Shown one piece after another: positions 2,213 through 56,394 of a stretch of 64,000 nucleotides of DNA. Source of the stretch: Ignavibacteriales bacterium (GTDB lineage: Bacteria > Bacillota_I > Bacilli_A > RF39 > UBA660). Position 1 is the first letter of the stretch. The number at the start of each line of letters is the position of its first letter. Under the pieces are notes generated by a model. The model ran no database searches. It had not been told where the DNA came from and saw nothing but the letters and a program-made list of their open reading frames with translations. Made by a program: the position numbers and the translations under genes. The stretch is from assembly GCA_050259235.1 (NCBI GenBank), contig JBLNAG010000001.1, forward strand, positions 86,640 through 150,639, read 5' to 3'.

Positions 2213-3584
2213 TTATACCTAAATGTTTAATAATGGCACTTGCTATACCATCAATATATTTATTTTGATTGTTTGTAAGATTATCAATATCAACTTTATT
2301 TTGAACATAACCTAATTCTAAGATATATGCTTCCATTCCAACATTGCTAAAACGATATGGATTTTCTATTTTATCATCATTATCACCATCAACATATGAT
2401 CCAGTCATCATACCGCCTGTTTCGCGAATCATGTAGTAATATGGAGTTTTAGTTGTAATAGTAGTATAAGGTTTTTGCTCCTTCTCTACTCTTTCTTCGT
2501 TATAATCAGTTATTTCAGCATTGGTAAAGGTTCTTGTATATATGCCGTCAGTAATGTAATTATGTTTGTTAGTAGAATAATTAGTACCAGATGCATTTTT
2601 AACACTTTCTGCTAATTCTTTAGCAAACGTATAATCAATGTTATTTGGTGTATATAATTCTAATCCATTTAAGTCATATGAATAACCACTATTTAAATGA
2701 ATTGAAAAGACAAATTTAGCATTTAAATTATACCCAGTAGTAACACGACCATTAGTGCCATATTCTACTACTTTTTCACTGCTCTTAACATCAGTCCAAC
2801 TAAGAGCTACTTTTAGGCCATAACTTTCTAACTTTTCCTTTAATGCCTTACTATATTTAACAGTAAAATCTGTTTCACATGGTACTGTTGAACGATAACA
2901 TGCACCAGGATCTATACCACCATGTCCTGGATCTATAACAATATCATAAATGCTTTCACTATCAGATTTATCAATAGCAAAACTAATAGTATTTAAATCG
3001 TTATTTGAGTCAATTGCAATTCTATATTTATTTCCTATTGGATAATACTCAGTATTTTTATATGTTGTTGTATTGTTCAATAAATAATACTTACTTTCAT
3101 CGTGTTTATAAAAAACCTTTAAAAAAACATAGTAATCTTTTATATCAAAGTTATCTAAATTGATACCATTATTTAGTTTATCCCCTACTACAAAACTTAT
3201 ATTATTTCCTTCAATATTAGTTTTTAAGTCGTAATATTGATCTTCTCCATCGTATAAAACTAATTTAGCATTTTCAATCTCTAAAGTTGGATATAATATT
3301 TCAATACCCGCAAATTTTTCACTATGTGCATTAACACTATTAGTTAGAGATATACTACCTGACATATTTAAATGATTACCATATATATATATATTATTAA
3401 TATTAACTATTTCTTCTTCAATATTTAATTTATCCTCTTCGCTTTTACTTAAAAATGAAGGTACTTCATTTTCATTTTTATTTACTACTTCTGCATAAAA
3501 GCTACCAATTATCAATATAACTATAATTATAATTCTCTTTATCATTCGCTGTATTCCCTCTTTCTGGAATAAGTACATCCACAA
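2196..3584 (-). CDS. N-acetylmuramoyl-L-alanine amidase (Amidase_3/MurNAc-LAA) with N-terminal membrane anchor
   Basis: DIVIDPGHGGIDPGA and FSIHLNS motifs typical of Amidase_3 (CwlD/AmiC type); hydrophobic N-terminus. Confidence 0.8.
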   Translation of the reverse strand: MWMYLFQKEGIQRMIKRIIIIVILIIGSFYAEVVNKNENEVPSFLSKSEEDKLNIEEEIVNINNIYIYGNHLNMSGSISLTNSVNAHSEKFAGIEILYPTLEIENAKLVLYDGEDQYYDLKTNIEGNNISFVVGDKLNNGINLDNFDIKDYYVFLKVFYKHDESKYYLLNNTTTYKNTEYYPIGNKYRIAIDSNNDLNTISFAIDKSDSESIYDIVIDPGHGGIDPGACYRSTVPCETDFTVKYSKALKEKLESYGLKVALSWTDVKSSEKVVEYGTNGRVTTGYNLNAKFVFSIHLNSGYSYDLNGLELYTPNNIDYTFAKELAESVKNASGTNYSTNKHNYITDGIYTRTFTNAEITDYNEERVEKEQKPYTTITTKTPYYYMIRETGGMMTGSYVDGDNDDKIENPYRFSNVGMEAYILELGYVQNKVDIDNLTNNQNKYIDGIASAIIKHLGINENNN

Positions 3585-4165
3585 TAATCTTGGCGATATA
3601 GTTGATATTTTTTAGATAGTTCTATTGATTTTTTATATCCATCATTCTTTTTAAAATCACTATATAAGTACTTAATTTTATATTCATTTTCTAGATTTTT
3701 ACCAATGTTGTTTAGTACACTAGCATTTTTATACGGACTAATTGATAAAGTAGTAGTAAAGTAGTCAAAATTTAATTCTAAAGCTTTTTTTGCAGTTTCT
3801 TCTAATCTAAGATTGAAACATTTAAAACAACGCTTTCCGCCTTCCTTTTCTTCTTCTAAACCCTTAATCATTTCTTCATATATATTATTATCATAATTTC
3901 CTTCAATAATTTTGACATCATTATTAAATTCATTTACAAATCTATCAAGTTCAATAATTCTTTTATCATATTCTTCCTTTGGTGCAATGTTTGGATTGTA
4001 AAAAAATAAACTAATATTAAAATAACTAGAAAGATATTCCAATACGTAACTACTACATGGTGCACAGCATACATGTAACAAAAGTTTTGGTTTGTAATCT
4101 AATTTTTTTATTTCATCGATTGTCTTATTTAATATTAGTTGATAATTATCTTTCATATACAACAC
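3542..4165 (-). CDS. queH: Epoxyqueuosine reductase QueH (DUF208)
   Basis: LLLHVCCAPCSSYV and KRCFKC...CGC Cys motifs characteristic of QueH. Confidence 0.8.
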   Translation of the reverse strand: MLYMKDNYQLILNKTIDEIKKLDYKPKLLLHVCCAPCSSYVLEYLSSYFNISLFFYNPNIAPKEEYDKRIIELDRFVNEFNNDVKIIEGNYDNNIYEEMIKGLEEEKEGGKRCFKCFNLRLEETAKKALELNFDYFTTTLSISPYKNASVLNNIGKNLENEYKIKYLYSDFKKNDGYKKSIELSKKYQLYRQDYCGCTYSRKREYSE

Positions 4166-4899: not shown

Positions 4900-5295
4900 C
4901 TAATGTAGATTCTCTTTTTTTTCAATAAATATTTTTCTTGTTACAAAATTCCATACCATAACTATTCCAGTTGCGACTATCTTAGTAAGCATGTAATATA
5001 CATGCATTAATTCAACCATAGTGTACATTACTAATTGATTGATACCTAATCCAATAATACTACCAATTATAAAGATAATAAAATGTTTCCTACTTTCTTT
5101 TTTATCTGTTTCAAAAACAAATTTAATACTAGCAATATAATTAAATATTAGTGAAATTGTAAAAGAAATAATAGACGAAACCAAATAATATATGCCACAA
5201 TATTCAGTTAAAATATATAGTAATGAATAGTCAATTAGGAAAGCAATTCCGCCTACTACTAAAAATTTAAATATTTGTTTCGTTAGTTTATTCAT
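4900..5295 (-). CDS. gtrA: GtrA family small membrane protein (putative lipid-linked sugar flippase component)
   Basis: 131 aa with 4 predicted TM helices and the VVGGIAFLIDY GtrA-like start; immediately downstream of a GT2 gene. Confidence 0.7.
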   Translation of the reverse strand: MNKLTKQIFKFLVVGGIAFLIDYSLLYILTEYCGIYYLVSSIISFTISLIFNYIASIKFVFETDKKESRKHFIIFIIGSIIGLGINQLVMYTMVELMHVYYMLTKIVATGIVMVWNFVTRKIFIEKKENLH

Positions 5296-6217
5296 GTTTC
5301 CTCAAGTTATTTAAAAGTAATTCAAATAGTTGTTTATGTTTTTTAACTATTACTTGTAAGATAATACCACATATCCATAACAATGCAGCTAACATCATTA
5401 AGAATCCTGAGAATATTAATGTTGGATATCTAGGAACTAATCCTGTTTTAAAATATTCAATGAACACTGGAGTGCCAAAAGCAATTGATAATAATGCTAA
5501 TAATAAGGCTACCATACTGAAAAATATAGCAGGTTTATATTCTTTAAATAAAGTTGCAATTGTTTTTAATACTTTAAATCCATCTTTATATGTATTTAAT
5601 TTTGATACGCTACCTTCAGGACGATCACGATAACTTACAGGTACTTCTACTAACATAAAGTTTTTATCTACAGCATGAATAGTCATTTCTGTTTCTATTT
5701 CAAATCCCTTAGATAATACTGGGAATGTTTTAACAAATTCGTAACTAAATGCGCGGTAACCAGTCATGATATCATGAACATTATTGTTAAATAGTTTATT
5801 AATTAAAAATCTTACTATCTTATTACCAAAGTTATGAAATGCTCTTTTATTTTCAGTAAAATATGTTGAAGATAAACGATCTCCAATAACCATATCTGCT
5901 CTTCCTTCTAGAATATAGTTACACATTTCTAAAGCATTTTCAGCTGGATATGTATCATCACCATCAATCATTAAATAGCAGTCTGCATCAATTTGACGGA
6001 ACATACTTCTAATAACATTTCCTTTACCTTGTTTATATTCATATCTAACTATAGCACCAGCTTTTTTAGCAATTTCATCAGTTTTATCTTTTGAATTATT
6101 ATCATAGACATAGATATCTGCATCTGGCAAAACCTTCTTATAATCAGTTATTACTTTCTTTATTGTTTTACTTTCATTGTAACAAGGAATTAATACAGCA
6201 ATTTTTTTATTTTTCAT
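5288..6217 (-). CDS. GT2 polyprenyl-phosphate glycosyltransferase (GtrB/CsbB/DPM1-like) with two C-terminal TM helices
   Basis: IAVLIPCYNESKTI and DGDDTYP motifs (DXD); C-terminal hydrophobic tail as in GtrB. Confidence 0.8.
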   Translation of the reverse strand: MKNKKIAVLIPCYNESKTIKKVITDYKKVLPDADIYVYDNNSKDKTDEIAKKAGAIVRYEYKQGKGNVIRSMFRQIDADCYLMIDGDDTYPAENALEMCNYILEGRADMVIGDRLSSTYFTENKRAFHNFGNKIVRFLINKLFNNNVHDIMTGYRAFSYEFVKTFPVLSKGFEIETEMTIHAVDKNFMLVEVPVSYRDRPEGSVSKLNTYKDGFKVLKTIATLFKEYKPAIFFSMVALLLALLSIAFGTPVFIEYFKTGLVPRYPTLIFSGFLMMLAALLWICGIILQVIVKKHKQLFELLLNNLRKHE

Positions 6218-8060
6218 GTTTCACTTCTCCTTCAAAACTTTTTTTATTAATATTTATAAACATTGCTATTAAAATTGGGATTGAAAATATATATGGCATT
6301 GCATACCTGAAATATGTGTTGGCTGGTGAAGCTACACATATTAACAATAAAGCTAAACTAGGTAGTAAGTAAATTAAATATTTTCGTTTATTTAGTACTA
6401 AAAGATAAATAGCCATTGTCATAATCATCCATCCACAGAATGCAATATTAACTATCATTCCAACAATTGGAAAATATGGATACATTATTCCTAAATAACT
6501 TAAATTTTTACACATTCCATTTAAACTATTATAATGATAATTAAATAATCCAGTTTCTTCTAATCTTGAATCATATTTATGGTATATATACCACTTGCTA
6601 GTATTAGGATAAAAGTACCCATAAGTATTATTAATGGTAGCCTCAGTATAAATACATGGACGATTCATAAAGCCTTTAAACCATACTTTAAAGTAATTTT
6701 TCAAGTCCTCACTTGTATAATCTTTATTAAACTGATTTTTAACTGGATCAGATAATATTGGATTATATCTACTAGCTAATGTCTCATAATCTAATAATTT
6801 ATCAACTATTTCAATATCTTCCTTTGTTAGATGATTATAATACTTAATATATCTAGCTGTTTGTTGAAAAGGAATAGAAAGAATCTCTCTAATACTTCCA
6901 GGTGTAATATGTAAGGCAGGTAATAAAATTTTGTTGTAACCTTGAAATAATAATATTGGAATAATTAAAATAATACCAAGTTTAATACGATTCTTTTTTT
7001 CTATTAAGAATAAGAATGGAAATGATAATATTATCATATATATACCATTATTTCTAAATAACATAATTAGTAATAGTAATAAAGTATATAAAATTATTTG
7101 TTTTATTTTAATATTTTGCTTATTAATTATTTCAAATAACATAATTGTATATAGAATAACTAAAGATGTAAAAATGGTATCTTTAACTGCGGACATCGCA
7201 TAAAAAGGAAATACTGGGACAAGTGCATATATAATTAAAACTATTGTTCTTAACCAATATGGTGTATTTAATTTCTTCATATATTTAATAGTAAAAGCTA
7301 AGACTGATACTAAGATACTTATTTGAATTATACTATATATGAACAATCCAAAATTATCTGAACCTAGCATTCTACCAATCTTTACTGATCCTCCAAGTAA
7401 GGCTGTATGTAATACCGGATGATGATTTGTTATTAAAACATTTTCATCAATTAAATTAACGCCTTCAATATAATGAGTTTCAAGTCCAAAAAATTGTTTA
7501 ATTTGGTTACTAGGATCTGGTGATAAAATTGCTGGATAAAAAGCAATAATATAAGGTAACCAACAGATTAACATGATTAATATACTACTCAGCATCGGAT
7601 GATCTTCAAATATTAACTTTGACCATTTATTAGGAATTTTTAAGTTAAATATCTTAGTGTTATTAATAAAATCAAAGATAATATTAATAGTACATAAAAT
7701 TAAATTATAATATCCGAATATTAAAACACATGAGATTAGAAAATTACTAATACTTCCCATAACTAAATTCCAATTACCAATTTCCTCATAACTATTACCT
7801 ACTACTAAGAATAACGAAAAAAGTAATGATAGTATTTTGAAACTAAGCTTGCTTTTGATATTTTTAAAATAGTATTTATTATAAAATTGATAAATTAAAA
7901 TACTGACTACAAATATGGTAAAACTACGACCTTTTAGAATAGCAAGTGGATTACTTTTACCAATCATATTAACATCTAAGAAAAATGAAAGGGTTGTAAT
8001 GATTGAAAGTAATAATAAAATAAATATTCTGAAATACTTATTGTTTTTGATATTAGTCAT
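6207..8060 (-). CDS. Large polytopic membrane protein, putative GT-C-type glycosyltransferase (GtrC/YfhO-like role)
   Basis: 617 aa with >12 hydrophobic segments; first gene of the membrane-protein/GT2/GtrA operon. Role assigned by synteny only. Confidence 0.45.
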   Translation of the reverse strand: MTNIKNNKYFRIFILLLLSIITTLSFFLDVNMIGKSNPLAILKGRSFTIFVVSILIYQFYNKYYFKNIKSKLSFKILSLLFSLFLVVGNSYEEIGNWNLVMGSISNFLISCVLIFGYYNLILCTINIIFDFINNTKIFNLKIPNKWSKLIFEDHPMLSSILIMLICWLPYIIAFYPAILSPDPSNQIKQFFGLETHYIEGVNLIDENVLITNHHPVLHTALLGGSVKIGRMLGSDNFGLFIYSIIQISILVSVLAFTIKYMKKLNTPYWLRTIVLIIYALVPVFPFYAMSAVKDTIFTSLVILYTIMLFEIINKQNIKIKQIILYTLLLLLIMLFRNNGIYMIILSFPFLFLIEKKNRIKLGIILIIPILLFQGYNKILLPALHITPGSIREILSIPFQQTARYIKYYNHLTKEDIEIVDKLLDYETLASRYNPILSDPVKNQFNKDYTSEDLKNYFKVWFKGFMNRPCIYTEATINNTYGYFYPNTSKWYIYHKYDSRLEETGLFNYHYNSLNGMCKNLSYLGIMYPYFPIVGMIVNIAFCGWMIMTMAIYLLVLNKRKYLIYLLPSLALLLICVASPANTYFRYAMPYIFSIPILIAMFININKKSFEGEVKHEK

Positions 8061-8122: not shown

Positions 8123-9331
8123 CTAAATTTTTCTTGTTAATACTTTTCCTTCAGAAAATTTACAGTCAGATGAGCATTCATAATCTGGGAAAGTACATCT
8201 TGCTCCTTTAGTATATTTGATAATATCATCTTTTAAAGGATGATTATTTTTCTTAAGAGCTTCTTGATATTTCAATAAATTAGCTCTAGTTTGATTACAT
8301 ACTTCTACTTGGACCGCAGAGCATAATCTTTCTTTGCATTTTAAGATAAAGTTATCATATGTTCCTCTTTCAGTAACGTCAACAAGAGTACCTTGAGGTA
8401 TAACATTTTCAATTGATTTTATATCATTTAACCATTCTTCAGTTAATTCTTTATTATCTAGGAGAATTGGTGGTATAAAGTATTCTTTAGTTTTAGAAAA
8501 CTTAAATTCATAACTAAGTGTTCTATGTCTTTGAGCATCAGCTAAATGAGCAAATGTTGCTTTATATTTAACACAATATGATTCTCCAAATTCTTCTACT
8601 TTATCACGTTTAGATAACAATGAGAAACTCCTATCTTTACGATTAGTTTGTAATCTATCATCTAAAACATTAAGTTTTGTAAAAATATCAATAAATTCTT
8701 TAAGATATGGAATTAATTTTTCTTCTAATTCACTAACAGGATTATTAATAATTCGTCTCATAAAGGCGACAACACGATTTAATTGTGCAAGGGGTATGGT
8801 ATGTATTAATCTTGTTGGCATAAATATAGTTACAAGATATCTGCAGTTTTCTTGTGCTAGTTTTTGTATTTTAAAATCTTTTAAAACATTACCATATTTT
8901 TCTTTAATGAGAGGCTTTAATATCTCCATCCATTTCATATATAATTGCTCTTCTTTTTCAGATATAACGGTATGATCAGTACCTACTACGATTGTATAGC
9001 GACCTGACTTTTCACTTGTATTATATTGTTTTTCATTATTTAATATCATAACTAATATCTTAGGAATGTTAACTATTTCAAAAGTAATATTTACGTGATC
9101 ATATACTGAATGGTGTTCATTTTCAATTGTTATTTTTTCACGCTTATTTGTTTGTTCTATAGGCTCATTTTTTAATTTTGACCACCCATCAGGTTCATAA
9201 CATTCTCCAGCTATTTTAGCACTAAAGCTAATAGCTTCTTTCAAATCAAAACCAATGATTTCTCCAGCTTCATTTCTCTTTAAAAATGGTGTGTTAGGTA
9301 ATAGTTCAACCTTCATTCTTCCTTCTTCCAT
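8123..9331 (-). CDS. ThyX (Thy1/FAD-dependent thymidylate synthase) family-like protein, atypical
   Basis: MKVELL start, HHSVYDHVNITFEIVN and SEKSGRY match the ThyX core, but the first RHR motif is replaced by NNE. A single RHRTLSYE motif occurs later. Length is 402 aa against ~220 typical, with a Cys-rich C-terminus. Confidence 0.45.
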   Translation of the reverse strand: MEEGRMKVELLPNTPFLKRNEAGEIIGFDLKEAISFSAKIAGECYEPDGWSKLKNEPIEQTNKREKITIENEHHSVYDHVNITFEIVNIPKILVMILNNEKQYNTSEKSGRYTIVVGTDHTVISEKEEQLYMKWMEILKPLIKEKYGNVLKDFKIQKLAQENCRYLVTIFMPTRLIHTIPLAQLNRVVAFMRRIINNPVSELEEKLIPYLKEFIDIFTKLNVLDDRLQTNRKDRSFSLLSKRDKVEEFGESYCVKYKATFAHLADAQRHRTLSYEFKFSKTKEYFIPPILLDNKELTEEWLNDIKSIENVIPQGTLVDVTERGTYDNFILKCKERLCSAVQVEVCNQTRANLLKYQEALKKNNHPLKDDIIKYTKGARCTFPDYECSSDCKFSEGKVLTRKI

Positions 9332-9408
9332 AAAAACCTCCTACATATCATATGTTCGGTATCCTACCTTTTTAATTGTACCACATAATAAAAAAAATTG
9401 ACATATTT

Positions 9409-10281
9409 TTATGCAACTTTTTTAATACTTAAATTATTTAACCAACTTAGTTCATGTAAATCAATGTTTTCTTGTTTAATAATATTTTGATTTTCAGTTC
9501 CGTGATAATCACTTCCCCCACTTATTAACAATTTATGTTTATAGCAAAAGTCAATATACTCTACTGTTTCTTCATTGGAGTGAATTGGATAGTAGCACTC
9601 TACTCCATCAATATCAGTATTGGCAAATAAATCACCTATAAAAGCAATCTTATCATTTATTGTTTTATATTGACCTGGTTGAGCAAGAAATGCAAGTCCT
9701 CCAGCTTCGTGAATTTTATTTACTACCTCTTCAGATGTAATTGCTAAACTTTCTTCTGAAACATAAAATGGACTATTCTTATCACAAAATGTTTTACGAT
9801 AAAAAGTACTAGCATTACTTAGAATATTTGCACCTAATATTTGAACATTATGATCATAATACTTACGAAGTAAATCATATAATACTGATCCTGCCCATTC
9901 TCCAGGTTTAAGTGCATATTCATCATACTTTAATCTTAAAGATTTAGATACTTCTATTCCTTTACTGTATGCATATTGTTGGAATGTTATAATTTTCATT
10001 TTATTGCTATTTAAATATGATTTTATAATTTCAGGATCAATATTTATTCCTAATATTTCAATTGGCAATCCCTTATGAATACATTTAACTTCAACCCCTT
10101 GAATTAATTTGCCAGTATAATATTCTTCAATATTAACCCCTTTTAATTTATCATAAACATTAACGGTATCATGATCAGTAATAGAAGCAATTCTTACTCC
10201 ATTAGCTTCTAATTTTTTTAATAATTCAATCGGCTCTAAAATGCCATCAGAACAATTAGTATGTAAGTGCAAATTTATCAT
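9409..10281 (-). CDS. PHP-domain metal-dependent phosphoesterase
   Basis: MINLHLHTNCSDG and ITDHDT motifs of the PHP family. Confidence 0.75.
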   Translation of the reverse strand: MINLHLHTNCSDGILEPIELLKKLEANGVRIASITDHDTVNVYDKLKGVNIEEYYTGKLIQGVEVKCIHKGLPIEILGINIDPEIIKSYLNSNKMKIITFQQYAYSKGIEVSKSLRLKYDEYALKPGEWAGSVLYDLLRKYYDHNVQILGANILSNASTFYRKTFCDKNSPFYVSEESLAITSEEVVNKIHEAGGLAFLAQPGQYKTINDKIAFIGDLFANTDIDGVECYYPIHSNEETVEYIDFCYKHKLLISGGSDYHGTENQNIIKQENIDLHELSWLNNLSIKKVA

Positions 10282-11266: not shown

Positions 11267-12580
11267 TTATACATTTCCAGTAAATGTTAGATATAGTAAT
11301 ACAACATTCATAGTTATAATAGTTAATGAAATCAACCATCCGAGAAATTTAGTAAATGGTTTATTTACAAAACTTCCCATTATATCTTTACGATTAGTAA
11401 TTTTTAGCATTGAAATAATGGCGACAGGTAAAACAAAACTTAAGCATACTTGACTCATTAATAATGCTTTCATAGGATTCACACCTATTAAAATAATAAT
11501 TATTCCAGGAAGCATAGTTATTATTCTTCTAATAAATACAGGTATTTTTAAATCAATAAATCCATCCATGATTGTTTCACCTGCCATTGCTCCTACAGAA
11601 GATGATGAAAAACCAGATGCTAGCAGTGAAGCTCCAAAAGCTCCACTTGATAATCCCCCTAAAAGAGGTTGAAGTGAACGATGTGCTTGTTCTATAGAGT
11701 TAACAACTATTCCACTACTATAGAAGACTGAGGCTGATACAATTACCATTGCAGCATTAACAATAAAAGCAATATTCATAGCAAAGAAAACATCAATTTT
11801 TTCCATGAATAAATGTTTTTTCTTTTCTGCTATCGTTTTACCGCCATTACGGCATTGTACTAACTCAGAATGCAAATATATAACATGTGGCATTACTGTT
11901 GCTCCAAGCATACCTACTGCAATTAAAACGGCCTGCCCATTTGGTAGAGATGGTAATAAGGTATGAAGTGCTACTTGAGGCCAATCTGGGCGAGCTAGAA
12001 ATAATTCTATTGTATAAGCTCCACAAATTACGGCTATTAATAGTGTTATAACGATTTCAACTACTCTTTGGCCATATTTTTGCAAGTAAACAATCATAAA
12101 TGTTACAATTGCCGTTAATATGACTGAATAAGATAATGAAATACCAAATAATAAATAAAAACCTAATACCCCACCTAAAAATTCAGCCATTGTAGTAGCC
12201 ATTGCTGCTAGAGTTGCCACGATATAAAAGAACCAATTTAATTTCTTTGAATATACCTTTCGACACATTTGGGTTAAATTACGACCCGTAACTATACCCA
12301 ATTTAGCAGACATTATTTGTAGAAATATAGCCATTAAATTACTCCATAATATAACCCATATAAGATTATAATTAAAAATAGAGCCTCCACTAATATTAGT
12401 AGCAAAATTACCAGGATCAATATAAGCTACACTAACAATAAAAGCTGGGCCTAAATATTTAAGTCCCATCTTAATTTTACTTATTATACTATTGGTTTTA
12501 ATTTCAGCCTTTCTAATATTAATTTCTATACCATTTAACATAGTAGTATCCTCATTCATTATTACACCTTCCACATTCAA
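11267..12580 (-). CDS. mntH: Nramp-family divalent metal (Mn2+/Fe2+) transporter MntH
   Basis: DPGNFATNISGGS (Nramp DPGN motif) and 11-12 TM helices. Confidence 0.9.
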   Translation of the reverse strand: MNVEGVIMNEDTTMLNGIEINIRKAEIKTNSIISKIKMGLKYLGPAFIVSVAYIDPGNFATNISGGSIFNYNLIWVILWSNLMAIFLQIMSAKLGIVTGRNLTQMCRKVYSKKLNWFFYIVATLAAMATTMAEFLGGVLGFYLLFGISLSYSVILTAIVTFMIVYLQKYGQRVVEIVITLLIAVICGAYTIELFLARPDWPQVALHTLLPSLPNGQAVLIAVGMLGATVMPHVIYLHSELVQCRNGGKTIAEKKKHLFMEKIDVFFAMNIAFIVNAAMVIVSASVFYSSGIVVNSIEQAHRSLQPLLGGLSSGAFGASLLASGFSSSSVGAMAGETIMDGFIDLKIPVFIRRIITMLPGIIIILIGVNPMKALLMSQVCLSFVLPVAIISMLKITNRKDIMGSFVNKPFTKFLGWLISLTIITMNVVLLYLTFTGNV

Positions 12581-12748: not shown

Positions 12749-13222
12749 ATGAATAATAATGATTTTCTTACTTTTAGTAACTATATGAAAAAAGATAAAA
12801 AGATGCTTACTGCTTCAATGGAAGATTATCTTGAAATGATTTATAGGCTTTCATCAAATGCCAATTTTACAAGAATCAATGACTTATCTAAAGCTCTTAA
12901 TGTTCATCCACCTTCTGCTACTAGGATGGTTCAACGTCTTGGTAAATTAAATTATTTAAAATATGAAAAATATGGAATGATTATTCTTAAAGGAAAGGGT
13001 TTAAAATTAGGGAAATTGTTATTGACACGTCATAATACCATTGAAAGTTTTCTATCACTCCTTGGTATTTCTAAAGAAGAAGTTGTAAAGGAAACTGAAA
13101 AAATTGAACATACCGTTAGTGCGGAAACAACTAAATGTCTTAATGATTATATAAACTTTGCTAAAGATAATCCTGATGTTATTACTAAATTTAAAGAATA
13201 TAGAGAAAAAGAATTACCATAG
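12749..13222 (+). CDS. mntR: DtxR/MntR family metal-dependent transcriptional regulator
   Basis: SMEDYLEMIYRL start and HPPSATRMVQRL winged-helix region are typical of MntR/DtxR; divergent to mntH. Confidence 0.85.
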   Translation: MNNNDFLTFSNYMKKDKKMLTASMEDYLEMIYRLSSNANFTRINDLSKALNVHPPSATRMVQRLGKLNYLKYEKYGMIILKGKGLKLGKLLLTRHNTIESFLSLLGISKEEVVKETEKIEHTVSAETTKCLNDYINFAKDNPDVITKFKEYREKELP

Positions 13223-13289: not shown

Positions 13290-13366
13290 TGGTAGCGACG
13301 GAGGGGATCGAACCCACGACCTTCCGGGTATGAACCGGACGCTCTAGCCAGCTGAGCTACATCGCC
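13290..13366 (-). tRNA. tRNA-Met (elongator, anticodon CAT)
   Basis: Reverse complement is GGCGATGTAGCTCAGCTGGCTAGAGCGTCCGGTTCATACCCGGAAGGTCGTGGGTTCGATCCCCTCCGTCGCTACCA. It is 77 nt with a cloverleaf, a CAT anticodon in a 7-nt loop and an encoded CCA, and is near-identical to Bacillus elongator tRNA-Met. Confidence 0.85.
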
Positions 13367-16818: not shown

Positions 16819-16845
16819 AAAAAAGGATATTAAATATCCTTTTAT
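16819..16845 (-). terminator. Rho-independent terminator downstream of rubrerythrin
   Basis: AAGGATAT-TAA-ATATCCTT hairpin with a T-run on the minus strand. Confidence 0.6.
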
Positions 16846-17384
16846 AAATAATTTTCATTTTTAACTTCAAAGTAACTTTGTGGATGTTCACATACTGGAC
16901 ATACTCCAGGAGCTTTATCTCCAAAATGAAGATGACCACAATTGCGACATTGCCAAACAGTTTTTTGACCTTTAGCAAATACCGTTTTATTATCTAAGTT
17001 TGAAGTTAAAGCACGATATCTTTCTTCATGTTCTTTCTCAATTTTAGCAACACTTTCAAATAGATATGCAATATGATTAAATCCTTCTTCTTTGGCTTCT
17101 TTAGCCATTTTATCATACATATCTGTCCATTCATAATTTTCACCAGAAGCTGCACCTTTTAGGTTTTCTTCAGTACTTGGTACTTCACCACCATGTAATA
17201 ATTTAAACCAGATTTTAGCATGTTCTTTTTCATTATTAGCTGTTTCTTCGAATATAGCAGCCATTTGTTCAAATCCATCTTTTTTTGCTTTAGATGCATA
17301 AAATGTATATTTATTTCTTGCTTTACTTTCACCAGCAAATGCTTCCCACAAATTTTGTTCTGTTTTTGATCCTTTTAATTCCAT
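16842..17384 (-). CDS. rbr: Rubrerythrin
   Basis: Ferritin-like diiron domain (EKEH, EHEERY motifs) plus C-terminal rubredoxin-like CRNCGH...CPVCEHP. Confidence 0.9.
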
Positions 17385-17485: not shown

Positions 17486-18058
17486 TTATTTTTTAGGACT
17501 ATAAACGTATGAAATCATTTTGGAAAATTCATATAATATAAAATTCCCTTTATTAATTGCAAAACCTTTACCAATTGCTTTACCGCCGATTGTTAAAGCA
17601 GCAATTACACCAGTTATAATTAATGACATAATAAGTAAATCAACATTTAATTTTGAACTTAGGGATGCTGCAACTACAACACCAGCAGTACCTGACATAA
17701 TACCACATACATCTCCAACAACATCACAACAAAATGATGATACTTTATCAGCATTCTTTATGAACATTACTGCTACATCTGATCCTCTTACTTTTCTAGT
17801 ACTCATTGAATGAAATGGTTTCTCGTCAGCAGAAGTAACAGATACTCCAATAATATCAAATAAAATACCAATAAATATAAATATTAATACTAATATTGAA
17901 CTAATAACTATACTAGCATCATTCAAAATATTTTCTGATATAAAACTAAATGAAATAGAAATAATAAAAGCTATCAAAGTTACTTTAATAATCCAAGGAT
18001 AATTAACCTTTTGCTTCTTTTTCTTATTTAATTGTTTTAAATCATCTTTTTTCGCCAT
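17486..18058 (-). CDS. Hypothetical integral membrane protein
   Basis: 190 aa with 4-5 hydrophobic helices and a CCDVVGDVCGIMSG segment; no confident family assignment. Confidence 0.45.
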   Translation of the reverse strand: MAKKDDLKQLNKKKKQKVNYPWIIKVTLIAFIISISFSFISENILNDASIVISSILVLIFIFIGILFDIIGVSVTSADEKPFHSMSTRKVRGSDVAVMFIKNADKVSSFCCDVVGDVCGIMSGTAGVVVAASLSSKLNVDLLIMSLIITGVIAALTIGGKAIGKGFAINKGNFILYEFSKMISYVYSPKK

Positions 18059-18118: not shown

Positions 18119-18720
18119 AAAAAAAGGGGTTCACCCTTGTTTTTTAATGAATGGCTATTAATATAGTAAACTTTACGTCTTAGGTCAAGTTGGTTTTCCC
18201 TAGTTTCTACATCACGTTACCATGAATGCGGTTCCCCTTTAAAGATTCTAATACATTGTCTCCAAATGTATGACTTGATTACCACTTAGTACGCACTGCA
18301 ATCCTATATTAATGTTACACCCTAGGAGATTTCCTCCTCAGTTTTTATTATTTATTCTCTTTTGCAAATATAGTTTCAAATCGCGATTTTCAAATAATTT
18401 TAGCTATAAACTACTTGAAATTGTTCAATTATTCCCTATACCCACTCAAGACAAGCTACACTACTCATAACTTTCGCCATAAATAGGTTTAATCTTGATC
18501 GTAATAAGTCTATCATGTATGCTTACCACAAGATTAGATCTCAACAAATAGTGGGTCATGATCGTATGCCATTACGGATTCCCCATTATTCTACCTTTCA
18601 GCACCCACCCCAAACTGGGCGTAAGAAGCAAGAACCAAAAGTTTCTCAATGTGCTCAACAACGGTTTTTTAATCCCGTCCTCATAATAAAATTGACTGAC
18701 TAGAATAATGTGCCACTCAA
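18119..18720. ncRNA. ORF-free, GC-enriched, probably structured RNA region; identity unresolved (candidates: cis-regulatory leader/riboswitch of the downstream membrane-protein gene, RNase P RNA or SRP RNA)
   Basis: ~650 nt without a credible ORF in an otherwise ~90% coding genome, with local GC clearly above background. A bidirectional hairpin terminator lies at 18119-18148 (AAGGG-TGAAC-CCCTT, flanked by T/A runs). There are several internal hairpins, e.g. AGGAG-GAAAT-CTCCT. The 62-aa ORF 18515..18703 is probably spurious. Confidence 0.3.
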
Positions 18721-18813
18721 TATGCCAATAATTCTAACATAAAAAATATTTTTTGTCAAATTTATGTAAACTTCATCATGATATTATATGCAATAAAATA
18801 AGATTAATCACTT

Positions 18814-56149: not shown

Positions 56150-56322
56150 AAAAAGCCCCGGATAATCGGTAGCCAATAACGACAAAACCTGTAAGTCCAG
56201 GTGGGCATCACATTACTAATTTTAGGATTCTTATATAAAATAAGCTTTCAACACCATCAGTAAATTAGATTCCCAATCGTTTAAAATATAGTGGTTTTTC
56301 TTAGAAGCAACCGTATTATCCA
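56150..56322 (-). ncRNA. ssrS: Probable 6S RNA (SsrS/BsrA-like)
   Basis: Own promoter on the minus strand (GTGACA-17nt-TGCTATAAT at 56332-56360). ~175-nt transcript whose 5' end CCUGGAUAAUACGGUUGC pairs with its 3' end GCUACCGAUUAUCCGGGG, a long terminal closing stem. Internal hairpin ACCUG-GACUUA-CAGGU; ends in GGGGCUUUUU. Lies immediately upstream of tcdA (yrvM homolog), as B. subtilis 6S-1 does in the aspS-yrvM intergenic region. Confidence 0.5.
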
Positions 56323-56394
56323 GGTACTTATATTATAGCATAATTATATGTTAATGTCACTACTAACAATGATAAATATTTTTAAATAAAGAAT

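What the first reader, a model, noticed from the sequence alone, without database searches (positions are those of the whole stretch)
8123..10281. Atypical ThyX-family protein with degenerate first RHR motif, cotranscribed with a PHP phosphoesterase
The 402-aa protein clearly aligns with the ThyX core: MKVELL start, HHSVYDHVNITFEIVN helix and SGRY. However, the substrate/FAD-binding RHR motif at the canonical position reads NNE, and only one RHRTLS motif occurs ~180 residues later. The protein is nearly twice normal ThyX length and has a Cys-rich C-terminus (CSAVQVEVCNQ...CTFPDYECSSDC).

It may be a divergent, possibly non-thymidylate-synthase member of the fold, for example a nucleotide-modifying enzyme. 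The upstream PHP phosphoesterase is in the same operon, so a nucleotide-metabolism or modification role is plausible.
Basis: partly seen in the sequence, partly recalled or inferred. Interest (0 to 1): 0.55.

Follow-up and report, generated by a model that had tools for sequence, protein, structure and literature searches.

The report
Fused two-domain ThyX thymidylate synthase
This gene most likely encodes a real flavin-dependent thymidylate synthase built from two fused ThyX-fold domains that have split the active-site residues between them; databases already call it ThyX, but I found no paper describing this layout or its conserved four-cysteine metal site.

Summary
The canonical ThyX RHR position reads N-N-E-K, nearly invariant across the family, and one RHR sits 170 residues downstream.

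AlphaFold2 (pLDDT 96) and Foldseek show two ThyX-fold domains in one chain: a complete N-domain, a truncated C-domain that Pfam cannot detect, and a Cys4 tail.

Residues that canonical "subunit A" supplies (RHR, Arg199) survive only in the C-domain. Those from "subunits B and C" (Ser71/Arg190; Arg87/Ser105/Arg107/Tyr108) survive only in the N-domain, including an Arg that sits at position 182 or 186 but never both. By inference, the enzyme is a homodimer acting as a pseudo-tetramer with two active sites instead of four.

Thymidylate kinase lies directly downstream in 27 of 73 related loci. The PHP neighbour is present in 0 of 80. A genuine thymidylate synthase is therefore more likely than a new nucleotide-modifying enzyme.

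A second, longer class (~520 aa; a cyanobacterium, Patescibacteria, Microcystis phage Ma-LMM01) has the same split layout without the cysteines.

The Cys4 site next to active-site Arg335 (zinc or iron-sulfur) remains unexplained.

The parts
8123..9331 (-). Whole ORF, 402 aa: fused two-domain ThyX-like protein (stop codon at 8123-8125)
8657..9331 (-). N-domain, residues 1-225: complete ThyX fold. It keeps the residues that canonical subunits B and C supply and lacks RHR and the Arg199 equivalent.
   Evidence: Pfam Thy1 38-186; hhalign N-half vs Mtb ThyX 96.1%; Foldseek PDB hits are ThyX only; conservation
9095..9115 (-). H73-H-S75-V-Y-D-H79. S75 is the equivalent of Mtb Ser71 (subunit-B role, FAD phosphate); H73 and H79 are conserved.
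9059..9061 (-). K91, equivalent of Mtb Arg87 (subunit-C role, dUMP); K in 91 of 93, R in 2 of 93
9029..9040 (-). N98-N99-E100-K101: the degenerate site where canonical ThyX has (x)RHR
8996..9007 (-). S109-G-R111-Y112: the SxRY half of the ThyX motif (Mtb Ser105/Arg107/Tyr108; subunit-C role)
8840..8842 (-). R164 in AQENxRY, aligned to Mtb Arg172; conserved in 91 of 93
8774..8788 (-). A182...R186: position 182 aligns to Mtb Arg190 (subunit-B role). This protein belongs to the minority type in which the Arg has moved one helix turn to position 186.
   Evidence: basic at 182 only in 77, at 186 only in 13, at both in 0, at neither in 3, of 93
8585..8656 (-). Inter-domain linker, residues 226-249
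   Evidence: secondary structure of the model
8237..8584 (-). C-domain, residues 250-365: a truncated second ThyX fold (strand, helix ending in RHR, strand, short helical part, strand, two helices). It is not detectable by Pfam or hhalign.
   Evidence: AF2 of the C-half alone: pLDDT 95.9; Foldseek PDB: 140 hits at E<=1e-3, ThyX throughout the 50 rows shown, best 1.1e-5, TMq 0.50-0.56; negative sequence tests
8522..8530 (-). R268-H269-R270: the only RHR motif (subunit-A role, FAD phosphates and isoalloxazine)
8321..8329 (-). R335-L-C337. R335 is the equivalent of Mtb Arg199 (subunit-A role, dUMP). C337 is the first ligand of the Cys4 site.
8126..8236 (-). C-terminal tail, residues 366-402, carrying C379, C386 and C390 (window 8162-8197). 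With C337 these form a conserved four-cysteine putative metal site.
   Evidence: tail pLDDT 96-97
9332..9408 (-). 77-nt gap between the PHP gene and the ThyX-like gene: AGGAGG ribosome-binding site, promoter-like ATGTCA-18-TGgTACAAT, no terminator
9409..10281 (-). Upstream PHP-domain phosphoesterase (290 aa). It is a neighbour in this genome only and is not part of the conserved unit.
   Evidence: Pfam PHP 31.1 bits; NCBIfam RNase RNM / 3',5'-bisphosphate phosphatase about 100 bits, far below cutoffs; absent from 80 of 80 related loci

Best explanation
The gene encodes a flavin-dependent thymidylate synthase (ThyX/FDTS type) in which two ThyX-fold domains are fused in one chain and have divided the active-site residues between them.

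Shown: the chain has a complete N-terminal ThyX domain and a truncated C-terminal ThyX-fold domain. The N-domain has lost RHR and the Arg199 equivalent but keeps S/T75, Arg182 or Arg186, K91, S109, R111, Y112 and R164. The C-domain has lost the SxRY segment but keeps R268-H269-R270 and R335. Four cysteines (C337, C379, C386, C390) are conserved. Relatives are operonically linked to thymidylate kinase.

Inferred: in the canonical homotetramer each active site is built from three subunits. Subunit A gives RHR and Arg199. Subunit B gives Ser71 and Arg190. Subunit C gives Arg87, Ser105, Arg107 and Tyr108. Here the C-domain can only play role A and the N-domain can only play roles B and C. Two chains would therefore assemble into a pseudo-tetramer (N, C, N', C') with two complete FAD/dUMP sites related by the dimer axis and two dead sites. 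Each site would use one C-domain and both N-domains. Chemistry would be as in ThyX: reduced FAD carries the methylene from CH2-H4folate to C5 of dUMP, giving dTMP, which the adjacent kinase phosphorylates.

The Cys4 site staples the C-terminal tail to the loop two residues after active-site Arg335. It is most simply a structural zinc site. An iron-sulfur cluster is not excluded.
For: Family membership: Pfam Thy1 at 51.1 bits against a 24.8 cutoff.

Fold: the full-length AF2 model has pLDDT 96.1 and pTM 0.92 and matches only ThyX in the PDB. The C-half modelled alone has pLDDT 95.9 and pTM 0.90 and again matches only ThyX: 140 hits at E<=1e-3, about 155 of 167 residues aligned.

Canonical plan: the three-subunit active-site map is taken from PMC6514825. 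Residue equivalences come from HMM alignments.

Partition across 93 members at 31-56% identity: R268 90, H269 86, R270 89 and R335 91 of 93, in the C-half only. K91 91, S109 92, R111 92, Y112 89, R164 91 and S/T75 90 of 93, in the N-half only. The N-half Arg199-equivalent position is 0% basic. The Arg190 equivalent is basic at 182 in 77 members, at 186 in 13, at both in 0 and at neither in 3, which is a compensatory relocation.

Context: thymidylate kinase (PF02223, 74.9 bits) occurs in 33 of 80 loci and is the immediate same-strand downstream gene in 27 of 73 informative loci, with gaps of -4 to +16 nt. Those pairs have 22 different upstream and 25 different downstream neighbour families. NT5C deoxynucleotidase is immediately upstream in 4 loci.

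Independent long class with the same split: Ma-LMM01 BAF36111.1 matches the whole model at Foldseek E 8.6e-11 and TMq 0.63. In that class 0 of 119 have RHR in the N-half and 117 of 119 have it in the C-half. Full-length hhalign is collinear at 96.7%. One member sits beside Tmk, dCTP deaminase, NDK and NUDIX.

Family size: 3020 hits; 625 clusters at 50% identity; 360 GTDB species.
Against: It scores only 28.5 bits against the thyX equivalog TIGR02170, whose cutoff is 87.9.

Sequence methods cannot recognise the C-half as ThyX: Pfam finds nothing, hhalign C-half vs N-half gives 0.4%, and C-half vs Mtb ThyX gives only P=0.011. Its assignment therefore rests on a predicted structure, with TM-scores of only about 0.5.

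I had no model coordinates and no multimer prediction. The pseudo-tetramer geometry and the count of two sites are deduced, not observed.

I could not scan any whole genome for thyA, a canonical thyX, tdk or folA, so 'sole thymidylate synthase' is untested.

The window itself has no tmk within 64 kb, and 40 of 73 informative loci have no tmk in the DNA held. Contexts in CPR-like genomes are uninformative.

No member is from a cultured organism and there are no biochemical data.
Confidence: 0.68

Rival explanations
1. A neofunctionalised ThyX paralogue. It would use the flavin/folate chemistry on another nucleotide, for example UMP, dCMP or CMP C5-methylation or hydroxymethylation, in the way PolB of polyoxin biosynthesis does. 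It would not be the cell's thymidylate synthase.
For: It is far below the thyX equivalog cutoff, has an unusual architecture and an extra Cys4 site. ThyX paralogues with altered specificity are known (PMC5954106). I could not show that thyA and canonical thyX are absent. A structurally similar 413-aa protein occurs in Bacillus phage SP-15, a phage I recall as having hypermodified DNA.
Against: Linkage to thymidylate kinase is tight and recurrent, and the sister class is linked to Tmk, Dcd and NDK. All dUMP-contacting residues of canonical ThyX are conserved. The gene is in housekeeping contexts in very small genomes (1.3 Mb Bacilli, 0.5-0.7 Mb CPR-like contigs). There is no biosynthetic-cluster or phage context. 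The PHP association is not conserved.
Confidence: 0.12
2. The same thymidylate synthase, but the Cys4 site holds a redox-active iron-sulfur cluster that passes electrons from ferredoxin or flavodoxin to the flavin. This would replace or supplement the NAD(P)H half-reaction of canonical ThyX.
For: Four cysteines are conserved at 90-93 of 93. C337 lies two residues after active-site R335, which is the Mtb Arg199 equivalent. The hosts look like anaerobes (rubrerythrin and QueH in the window; gut and CPR sources). The Cys tail is absent from the otherwise similar long class, so it is an added function rather than a requirement of the fold.
Against: The C-x41-C-x6-C-x3-C spacing matches no cluster motif I can name. 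A structural zinc site that pins the tail is simpler. No ferredoxin or flavodoxin gene recurs nearby. I had no coordinates to measure sulfur-sulfur distances or the distance to the flavin.
Confidence: 0.15
3. There was no duplication. The protein would be a single ThyX domain followed by an unrelated C-terminal metal-binding extension, and the downstream RHR would be coincidental.
For: Pfam and hhalign see no ThyX signal in the C-half.
Against: The C-half modelled on its own matches only ThyX structures at probability 1.00. RHR/RHR, 'yiPP'/'vvPP' and R335/Arg199 align in register. RHR and R335 are conserved at 86-91 of 93. A second class shows the same arrangement.
Confidence: 0.03
4. A catalytically dead ThyX-like pseudoenzyme, for example a nucleotide- or flavin-binding regulator.
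For: The contiguous ThyX motif is lost, and the equivalog score is low.
Against: Every catalytic or binding residue is retained once per chain, with a compensatory Arg relocation. The operon with tmk suggests a metabolic step rather than regulation.
Confidence: 0.02

Closest known systems
Canonical ThyX / flavin-dependent thymidylate synthase (T. maritima TM0449, M. tuberculosis Rv2754c, H. pylori; PDB 1O26, 3GWC, 3N3Y)
   Same: Same fold for both domains. Same set of FAD- and dUMP-contacting residues. The N-half is clearly homologous (hhalign 96.1%). Presumably the same chemistry and the same link to dTMP metabolism.
   Different: About 220-250 aa, forming a homotetramer with four identical sites, with the contiguous motif RHRxxSxxxxSxRY in every subunit. 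Here there are two unequal domains per chain, the motif is split (SxRY in the N-domain, RHR in the C-domain), two sites per dimer are predicted, there is an extra Cys4 site, and the TIGR02170 cutoff is failed.
Long (~460-590 aa) ThyX-annotated class: Microcystis phage Ma-LMM01 BAF36111.1 (PHROG 36506), Leptolyngbyaceae cyanobacterium JSC-12, and many Patescibacteria
   Same: The same tandem layout and the same split: HxS and SxRY in the N-half and a single RHR plus an 'LR' helix in the C-half. The whole-length structural match has E 8.6e-11 and TMq 0.63. hhalign is collinear at 96.7%. Tmk, Dcd and NDK are neighbours. Pfam sees only the N-half, with the identical score of 51.1 bits.
   Different: Some 60-190 residues longer, no Cys4 tail, ending in '...EFFDRS'. 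There is no BLAST-level similarity, and the C-halves are only weakly related (P=0.002). I found no published description of this class either.
PolB of polyoxin biosynthesis (ThyX paralogue, UMP/dUMP C5-methylase; PMC5954106)
   Same: A ThyX-family member that departs from the housekeeping enzyme.
   Different: PolB lies in a Streptomyces antibiotic gene cluster beside a normal thyX. From my own knowledge it is single-domain with a canonical motif. Here the context is tmk and housekeeping genes.
Chlamydia trachomatis ThyX (Griffin et al. 2005, J Biol Chem 280:5456; cited in PMC2386288)
   Same: From memory it is about 529 aa, the size of the long class above, and it is biochemically a functional FDTS. 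If it has the split layout, that design is already validated as a thymidylate synthase.
   Different: Not verified. I could obtain neither the sequence nor the paper. This is a lead, not evidence.
Thermus thermophilus Thy1 with an extra C-terminal domain (PDB 6J61)
   Same: A ThyX with an added C-terminal part. It appears among the fold hits.
   Different: About 240 residues in the crystal chain, so there is no room for a second ThyX-fold domain. It matches as an ordinary ThyX core. I did not inspect its sequence.

Membership tests
ThyX / Thy1 family (Pfam PF02511) | Pfam Thy1 profile match above the gathering score | tested here: met
   51.1 bits against 24.8, residues 38-186 matching profile positions 14-160 of 191
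ThyX / Thy1 family (Pfam PF02511) | ThyX alpha/beta fold | tested here: met
   The full model and the C-half model both match only ThyX chains in the PDB at probability 1.00; TM-scores are modest, 0.44-0.56
FAD-dependent thymidylate synthase equivalog (NCBIfam TIGR02170) | Score at or above the curated equivalog cutoff | tested here: not met
   28.5 bits against 87.9
Canonical ThyX (FDTS) | Contiguous ThyX motif RHRxxSxxxxSxRY within one domain | tested here: not met
   The N-domain reads N-N-E-K-Q-Y-N-T-S-E-K-S-G-R-Y. RHR occurs only at 268-270 in the C-domain, and no SxRY follows it.
Canonical ThyX (FDTS) | A complete set of FAD/dUMP ligands (Mtb Ser71, Arg87, Arg95-His96-Arg97, Ser105, Arg107, Tyr108, Arg190, Arg199) | tested here: met
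   All are present once per chain and conserved at 86-92 of 93, but distributed over two domains
Canonical ThyX (FDTS) | Homotetramer with four equivalent active sites, each at the interface of three subunits | not testable with these tools
   No multimer prediction or coordinates were available. The residue partition predicts a dimer with two sites (inference).
Canonical ThyX (FDTS) | Binds FAD and converts dUMP plus CH2-H4folate plus a reductant to dTMP | not testable with these tools
   Needs biochemistry or thyA complementation
Canonical ThyX (FDTS) | Genomic association with dTMP/dTTP metabolism | tested here: met
   tmk is immediately downstream in 27 of 73 loci; NT5C is immediately upstream in 4 loci. 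This is not seen in the window itself.
Canonical ThyX (FDTS) | Usually replaces ThyA (and often FolA) in the genome | not tested
There is no ThyA, DHFR or Tmk among the window ORFs scanned.
Long split-motif tandem ThyX class (Ma-LMM01 BAF36111.1 type) | Two ThyX-fold halves, SxRY only in the N-half and RHR only in the C-half | tested here: met
Long split-motif tandem ThyX class (Ma-LMM01 BAF36111.1 type) | Detectable sequence relationship over the full length | tested here: inconclusive
   Full-length hhalign 96.7% and collinear, driven by the N-halves (97.6%). The C-halves alone reach 14.7%, P=0.0018. There is no tblastn hit.
PolB-type ThyX paralogues (nucleoside-antibiotic biosynthesis) | Located in a nucleoside-antibiotic biosynthetic gene cluster | tested here: not met
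   Neighbours are tmk, ribosomal and other housekeeping genes

The most novel reading that the evidence does not exclude
The conserved Cys4 site next to active-site Arg335 holds an iron-sulfur cluster. This would make the family a ferredoxin- or flavodoxin-driven, NAD(P)H-independent thymidylate synthase, with an obligately asymmetric two-site architecture, used by anaerobic bacteria with reduced genomes (gut Bacilli and Patescibacteria). That would be a third way of supplying reducing power for dTMP synthesis.
Probability: 0.12. Interest if true: 0.8.

Novelty: new variant of a known kind. Interest (0 to 1): 0.5.

Why it matters
ThyX is the textbook case of an enzyme whose active sites exist only at the junction of three identical subunits, and it is an antibiotic target because humans lack it. 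This family, together with a longer sister class, shows that the homotetramer has been rebuilt as a fused pair of unequal domains, each of which keeps only its share of the site. It is a clean natural example of duplication followed by complementary loss at an oligomer interface, and it predicts half as many active sites.

The C-domain cannot be detected by Pfam or by the thyX equivalog model. Automated annotation therefore either under-scores these proteins or labels them without noticing the architecture, and motif-based ThyX surveys (RHRxxSxxxxSxR) would miss them.

The proteins occur in thousands of uncultured gut Bacilli and in Patescibacteria. These are organisms with minimal metabolism, where the source of dTMP matters for understanding their dependence on hosts.

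The added four-cysteine site beside the active site is unexplained and could be tested directly.

Tried and rejected
1. PHP phosphoesterase as functional partner: rejected. tblastn and phmmer of the window PHP protein against the 80 related loci found nothing.
2. Manual-alignment error as the cause of the missing RHR: rejected by HMM alignments and by conservation.
3. Sequence-level proof of internal duplication: failed. hhalign C-half vs N-half gave 0.4% and Pfam on the C-half gave nothing. Only the fold-level test worked.
4. Phage origin of this family: a viral-contig scan, tblastn against 50,697 phage records and PHROGs all found nothing for the window protein.
5. Other thymidylate synthase, DHFR or Tmk in the window: none among 20 ORFs scanned with Pfam, and none by tblastn with Tmk.
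6. Literature: eight full-text searches found no description of a fused, tandem or split-motif ThyX, or of a cysteine-rich or iron-sulfur ThyX. Leduc 2004 and Griffin 2005 are not held.
7. Whether Chlamydia ThyX belongs to the long class: could not be settled.
9. Organism names for distant members were mostly absent.
Full report
**1. The observation.**
The window has a 402-aa ORF at 8123-9331 (-) and a 290-aa ORF at 9409-10281 (-). Pfam assigns the first to Thy1/ThyX (PF02511, 51.1 bits against a cutoff of 24.8), but only over residues 38-186, which correspond to profile positions 14-160 of 191. It assigns the second to PHP. The NCBIfam thyX equivalog model scores only 28.5 bits against a cutoff of 87.9.

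Alignments to M. tuberculosis and H. pylori ThyX place the canonical R-H-R on N99-E100-K101 and the canonical SxRY on S109-G-R111-Y112. The only RHR is at 268-270. Of the five cysteines in the last third, C337, C379, C386 and C390 are conserved and C345 is not.

**2. It is a large family, not an oddity.**
- The word-indexed search found 3020 relatives, the best 120 all 393-412 aa.
- The exhaustive search found 625 clusters at 50% identity with E<=1e-3, of which 291 have E<=1e-30.
- 360 GTDB species encode a close relative. Nearly all are uncultured gut 'Bacilli', 'Tenericutes' or Erysipelotrichaceae MAGs, including a circular 1.31-Mb genome.
- More distant members (31-45% identity) lie in very small genomes that look like Patescibacteria.
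- Sources that name the protein call it 'FAD-dependent thymidylate synthase'.
- No member is from a cultured organism.

**3. Two ThyX folds in one chain.**
AlphaFold2 with a 93-sequence alignment gives pLDDT 96.1 and pTM 0.92. Foldseek against the PDB returns only ThyX, at probability 1.00, TM about 0.5 and about 250 aligned columns.

The order of secondary-structure elements suggested that residues 250-365 repeat the ThyX core from its second strand onward: a strand, a helix ending in RHR, a strand, a short helical part, a strand and two helices. Sequence methods do not see this. hhalign of the C-half against the N-half gives 0.4%, and Pfam finds nothing in the C-half.

I therefore modelled the C-half alone with 40 sequences. 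It folds confidently (pLDDT 95.9, pTM 0.90). Foldseek again returns ThyX alone in the rows shown: 140 hits at E<=1e-3, the best being T. maritima FDTS at 1.1e-5, with TMq 0.50-0.56 and about 155 of 167 residues aligned. The weak sequence signals that do exist are in register. RHR aligns to RHR and 'yiPP' to 'vvPP' (P=0.011). R335 aligns to Mtb Arg199 and E343 to Glu207.

**4. The active-site residues are partitioned along the known three-subunit plan.**
In canonical ThyX each site is built from three subunits (review PMC6514825):
- Subunit A supplies RHR (Mtb 95-97) and Arg199.
- Subunit B supplies Ser71 and Arg190, which bind the FAD phosphates.
- Subunit C supplies Arg87, Ser105, Arg107 and Tyr108, which bind dUMP.

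Across 93 members at 31-56% identity:
- The A-role residues are conserved only in the C-domain: R268 90, H269 86, R270 89 and R335 91 of 93.
- The C-role residues are conserved only in the N-domain: K91 91, S109 92, R111 92 and Y112 89 of 93.
- The B-role residues are also conserved only in the N-domain: S/T75 in 90 of 93.
- The N-domain position equivalent to Arg199 is never basic, and the C-domain has no SxRY after its RHR.

The Arg190 equivalent is basic at position 182 in 77 members. In 13 others, including this protein (A182, R186), it sits one helix turn later at 186. It is never at both positions and is absent from both in only 3. Such a compensatory relocation is hard to explain unless that arginine is functional.

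**5. Inferred mechanism.**
The C-domain can only play role A and the N-domain can only play roles B and C. One site also needs B and C from different subunits. A complete site therefore needs one C-domain and two N-domains, which means at least a homodimer.

Map this onto the 222-symmetric tetramer, with sites (A,B,C), (B,A,D), (C,D,A) and (D,C,B), and set A and D as C-domains and B and C as N-domains. Exactly two sites are then complete, they are related by the remaining twofold axis, and the other two are dead. This is a deduction. I had neither coordinates nor a multimer prediction.

**6. Function from context.**
- The PHP neighbour is not conserved: 0 of 80 loci by tblastn and phmmer.
- The 77-nt gap carries its own ribosome-binding site and a promoter-like extended -10 element, and no terminator.
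- The recurrent neighbour is thymidylate kinase (Pfam PF02223, 74.9 bits). It is present in 33 of 80 loci and is the immediate downstream same-strand gene in 27 of 73 informative loci, with gaps of -4 to +16 nt.
- Around those 27 pairs the flanks differ: 22 upstream and 25 downstream families, with ThyX-like identity of 45-100%. The pair is therefore kept as a unit.
- An NT5C 5'-deoxynucleotidase is the immediate upstream neighbour in 4 loci.

Together with the retained dUMP ligands, this favours a real thymidylate synthase over a new nucleotide-modifying activity. The caveats are that the window itself has no tmk, and that I could not test for thyA or a canonical thyX elsewhere in any genome.

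**7. A sister class with the same design.**
In the viral structure library the best match covers the whole model. It is the Microcystis phage Ma-LMM01 'thymidylate synthase' (491 aa, E 8.6e-11, TMq 0.63, 501 columns). Bacillus phage SP-15 (413 aa) and two unnamed proteins also match over most of the model.

The Ma-LMM01 protein (BAF36111.1) has GHGSV and STRY but no RHR in its N-half, and NRHRS plus a 'CQLRS' helix in its C-half. Pfam again sees only the N-half.

Its relatives form a class of 460-590 aa. At least 541 proteins have E<=1e-10, including Leptolyngbyaceae cyanobacterium JSC-12 and many Patescibacteria. In that class 0 of 119 have RHR in the N-half, 117 of 119 have it in the C-half, and 106 of 119 have SxRY in the N-half. 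The figures for the present class are 1, 224 and 228 of 237.

One 525-aa member lies beside Tmk, dCTP deaminase, NDK and a NUDIX hydrolase. The two classes align collinearly over both halves (hhalign 96.7%, E 4e-10), though the C-halves alone are only weakly related (P=0.0018). The longer class lacks the Cys-rich tail.

**8. The Cys4 site.**
C337 lies two residues after R335. C379, C386 and C390 are in the well-predicted tail (pLDDT 96-97). Their conservation at 90-93 of 93 implies a metal site. A structural zinc that pins the tail to the active-site helix-loop is the simplest reading. An iron-sulfur cluster close to the flavin is not excluded in these apparently anaerobic hosts (rubrerythrin and QueH in the window). 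No tool available here could decide between them.

**9. Comparison and novelty.**
The protein works like ThyX and belongs to the Thy1 superfamily. It fails two defining tests of the canonical enzyme: the contiguous ThyX motif and the equivalog score. It is predicted to fail a third, four equivalent sites in a homotetramer.

Databases already name it ThyX. Eight full-text searches found no description of a tandem or split-motif ThyX, or of a cysteine-rich one. That library omits most subscription journals. From memory, Chlamydia ThyX is about 529 aa and has been characterised, and it may belong to the longer class. I could not verify this.

I therefore rate the finding as a new variant of a known kind, of moderate interest.

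Noticed in passing
window 18135-18732 (-): Full-length OLE (ornate, large, extremophilic) RNA: Rfam RF01071, 356 bits, model positions 1-616. The ORF just downstream (17486-18058, 190 aa) has no Pfam match and could be an OLE-associated protein.
   Followed up: partly
window 56151-56329 (-) and 13293-13366 (-): 6S RNA (77.9 bits) and one tRNA gene.
   Followed up: no
whole window / protein P0001: NCBI labels the identical protein (MGE5455554.1, on a 295-kb contig) as coming from an 'Ignavibacteriales bacterium' MAG. However, the 23-33% G+C, the OLE RNA and the nearest homologues (all in Bacilli MAGs) point to a Bacillota genome, so the label is probably wrong. Several related loci labelled 'Muribaculaceae' look similarly mislabelled.
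   Followed up: partly
L085/L086 10001-11215 and L081 384-1541: In small genomes that look like Patescibacteria, the ThyX-like gene sits inside the ribosomal-protein operon between the L6 and S8 genes. In L085/L086 it is accompanied by a DUF3841 gene and two ORFs of unknown function. This looks like an insertion.
   Followed up: no
proteins P0275, P0450, P0474: MAGs labelled 'Candidatus Dojkabacteria' carry members of both long ThyX classes: the ~400-aa Cys4 class and the ~530-aa class. I did not establish whether both occur in one genome.
   Followed up: no
BFVD hit A0A127AWA5 (Bacillus phage SP-15): A 413-aa 'thymidylate synthetase' that is structurally similar over the whole model (E 1.2e-7, TMq 0.47). 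From memory, SP-15 has hypermodified thymine replacement in its DNA, so a tandem ThyX-like protein there might have a non-standard role.
   Followed up: no
window 11267-12580 (-) and 12749-13222 (+): A divergent pair of an Nramp/MntH-type manganese transporter and a MntR/DtxR-like repressor, judged from the translations only.
   Followed up: no
window 6207-8060 (-), 5288-6217 (-), 4900-5295 (-): Directly downstream of the ThyX-like gene is a DUF6020 membrane protein of 617 aa (Pfam, 213 bits). It is followed by a likely family-2 glycosyltransferase and a GtrA-like protein (both from the translations only), which looks like a cell-surface glycosylation module. A homologue of the DUF6020 protein lies near the ThyX-like gene in only 1 of 80 loci (L014).
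   Followed up: partly
window 3542-4165 (-) and 16842-17384 (-): Epoxyqueuosine reductase QueH (239.8 bits) and rubrerythrin (86.5 bits), which fit an anaerobic lifestyle.
   Followed up: no
L054 9436-10008 (+) and 3 similar loci: An NT5C-type 5'(3')-deoxyribonucleotidase (PF06941, 52.2 bits) lies immediately upstream of the ThyX-like gene in 4 loci. It is a second link to pyrimidine deoxynucleotide metabolism.
   Followed up: partly
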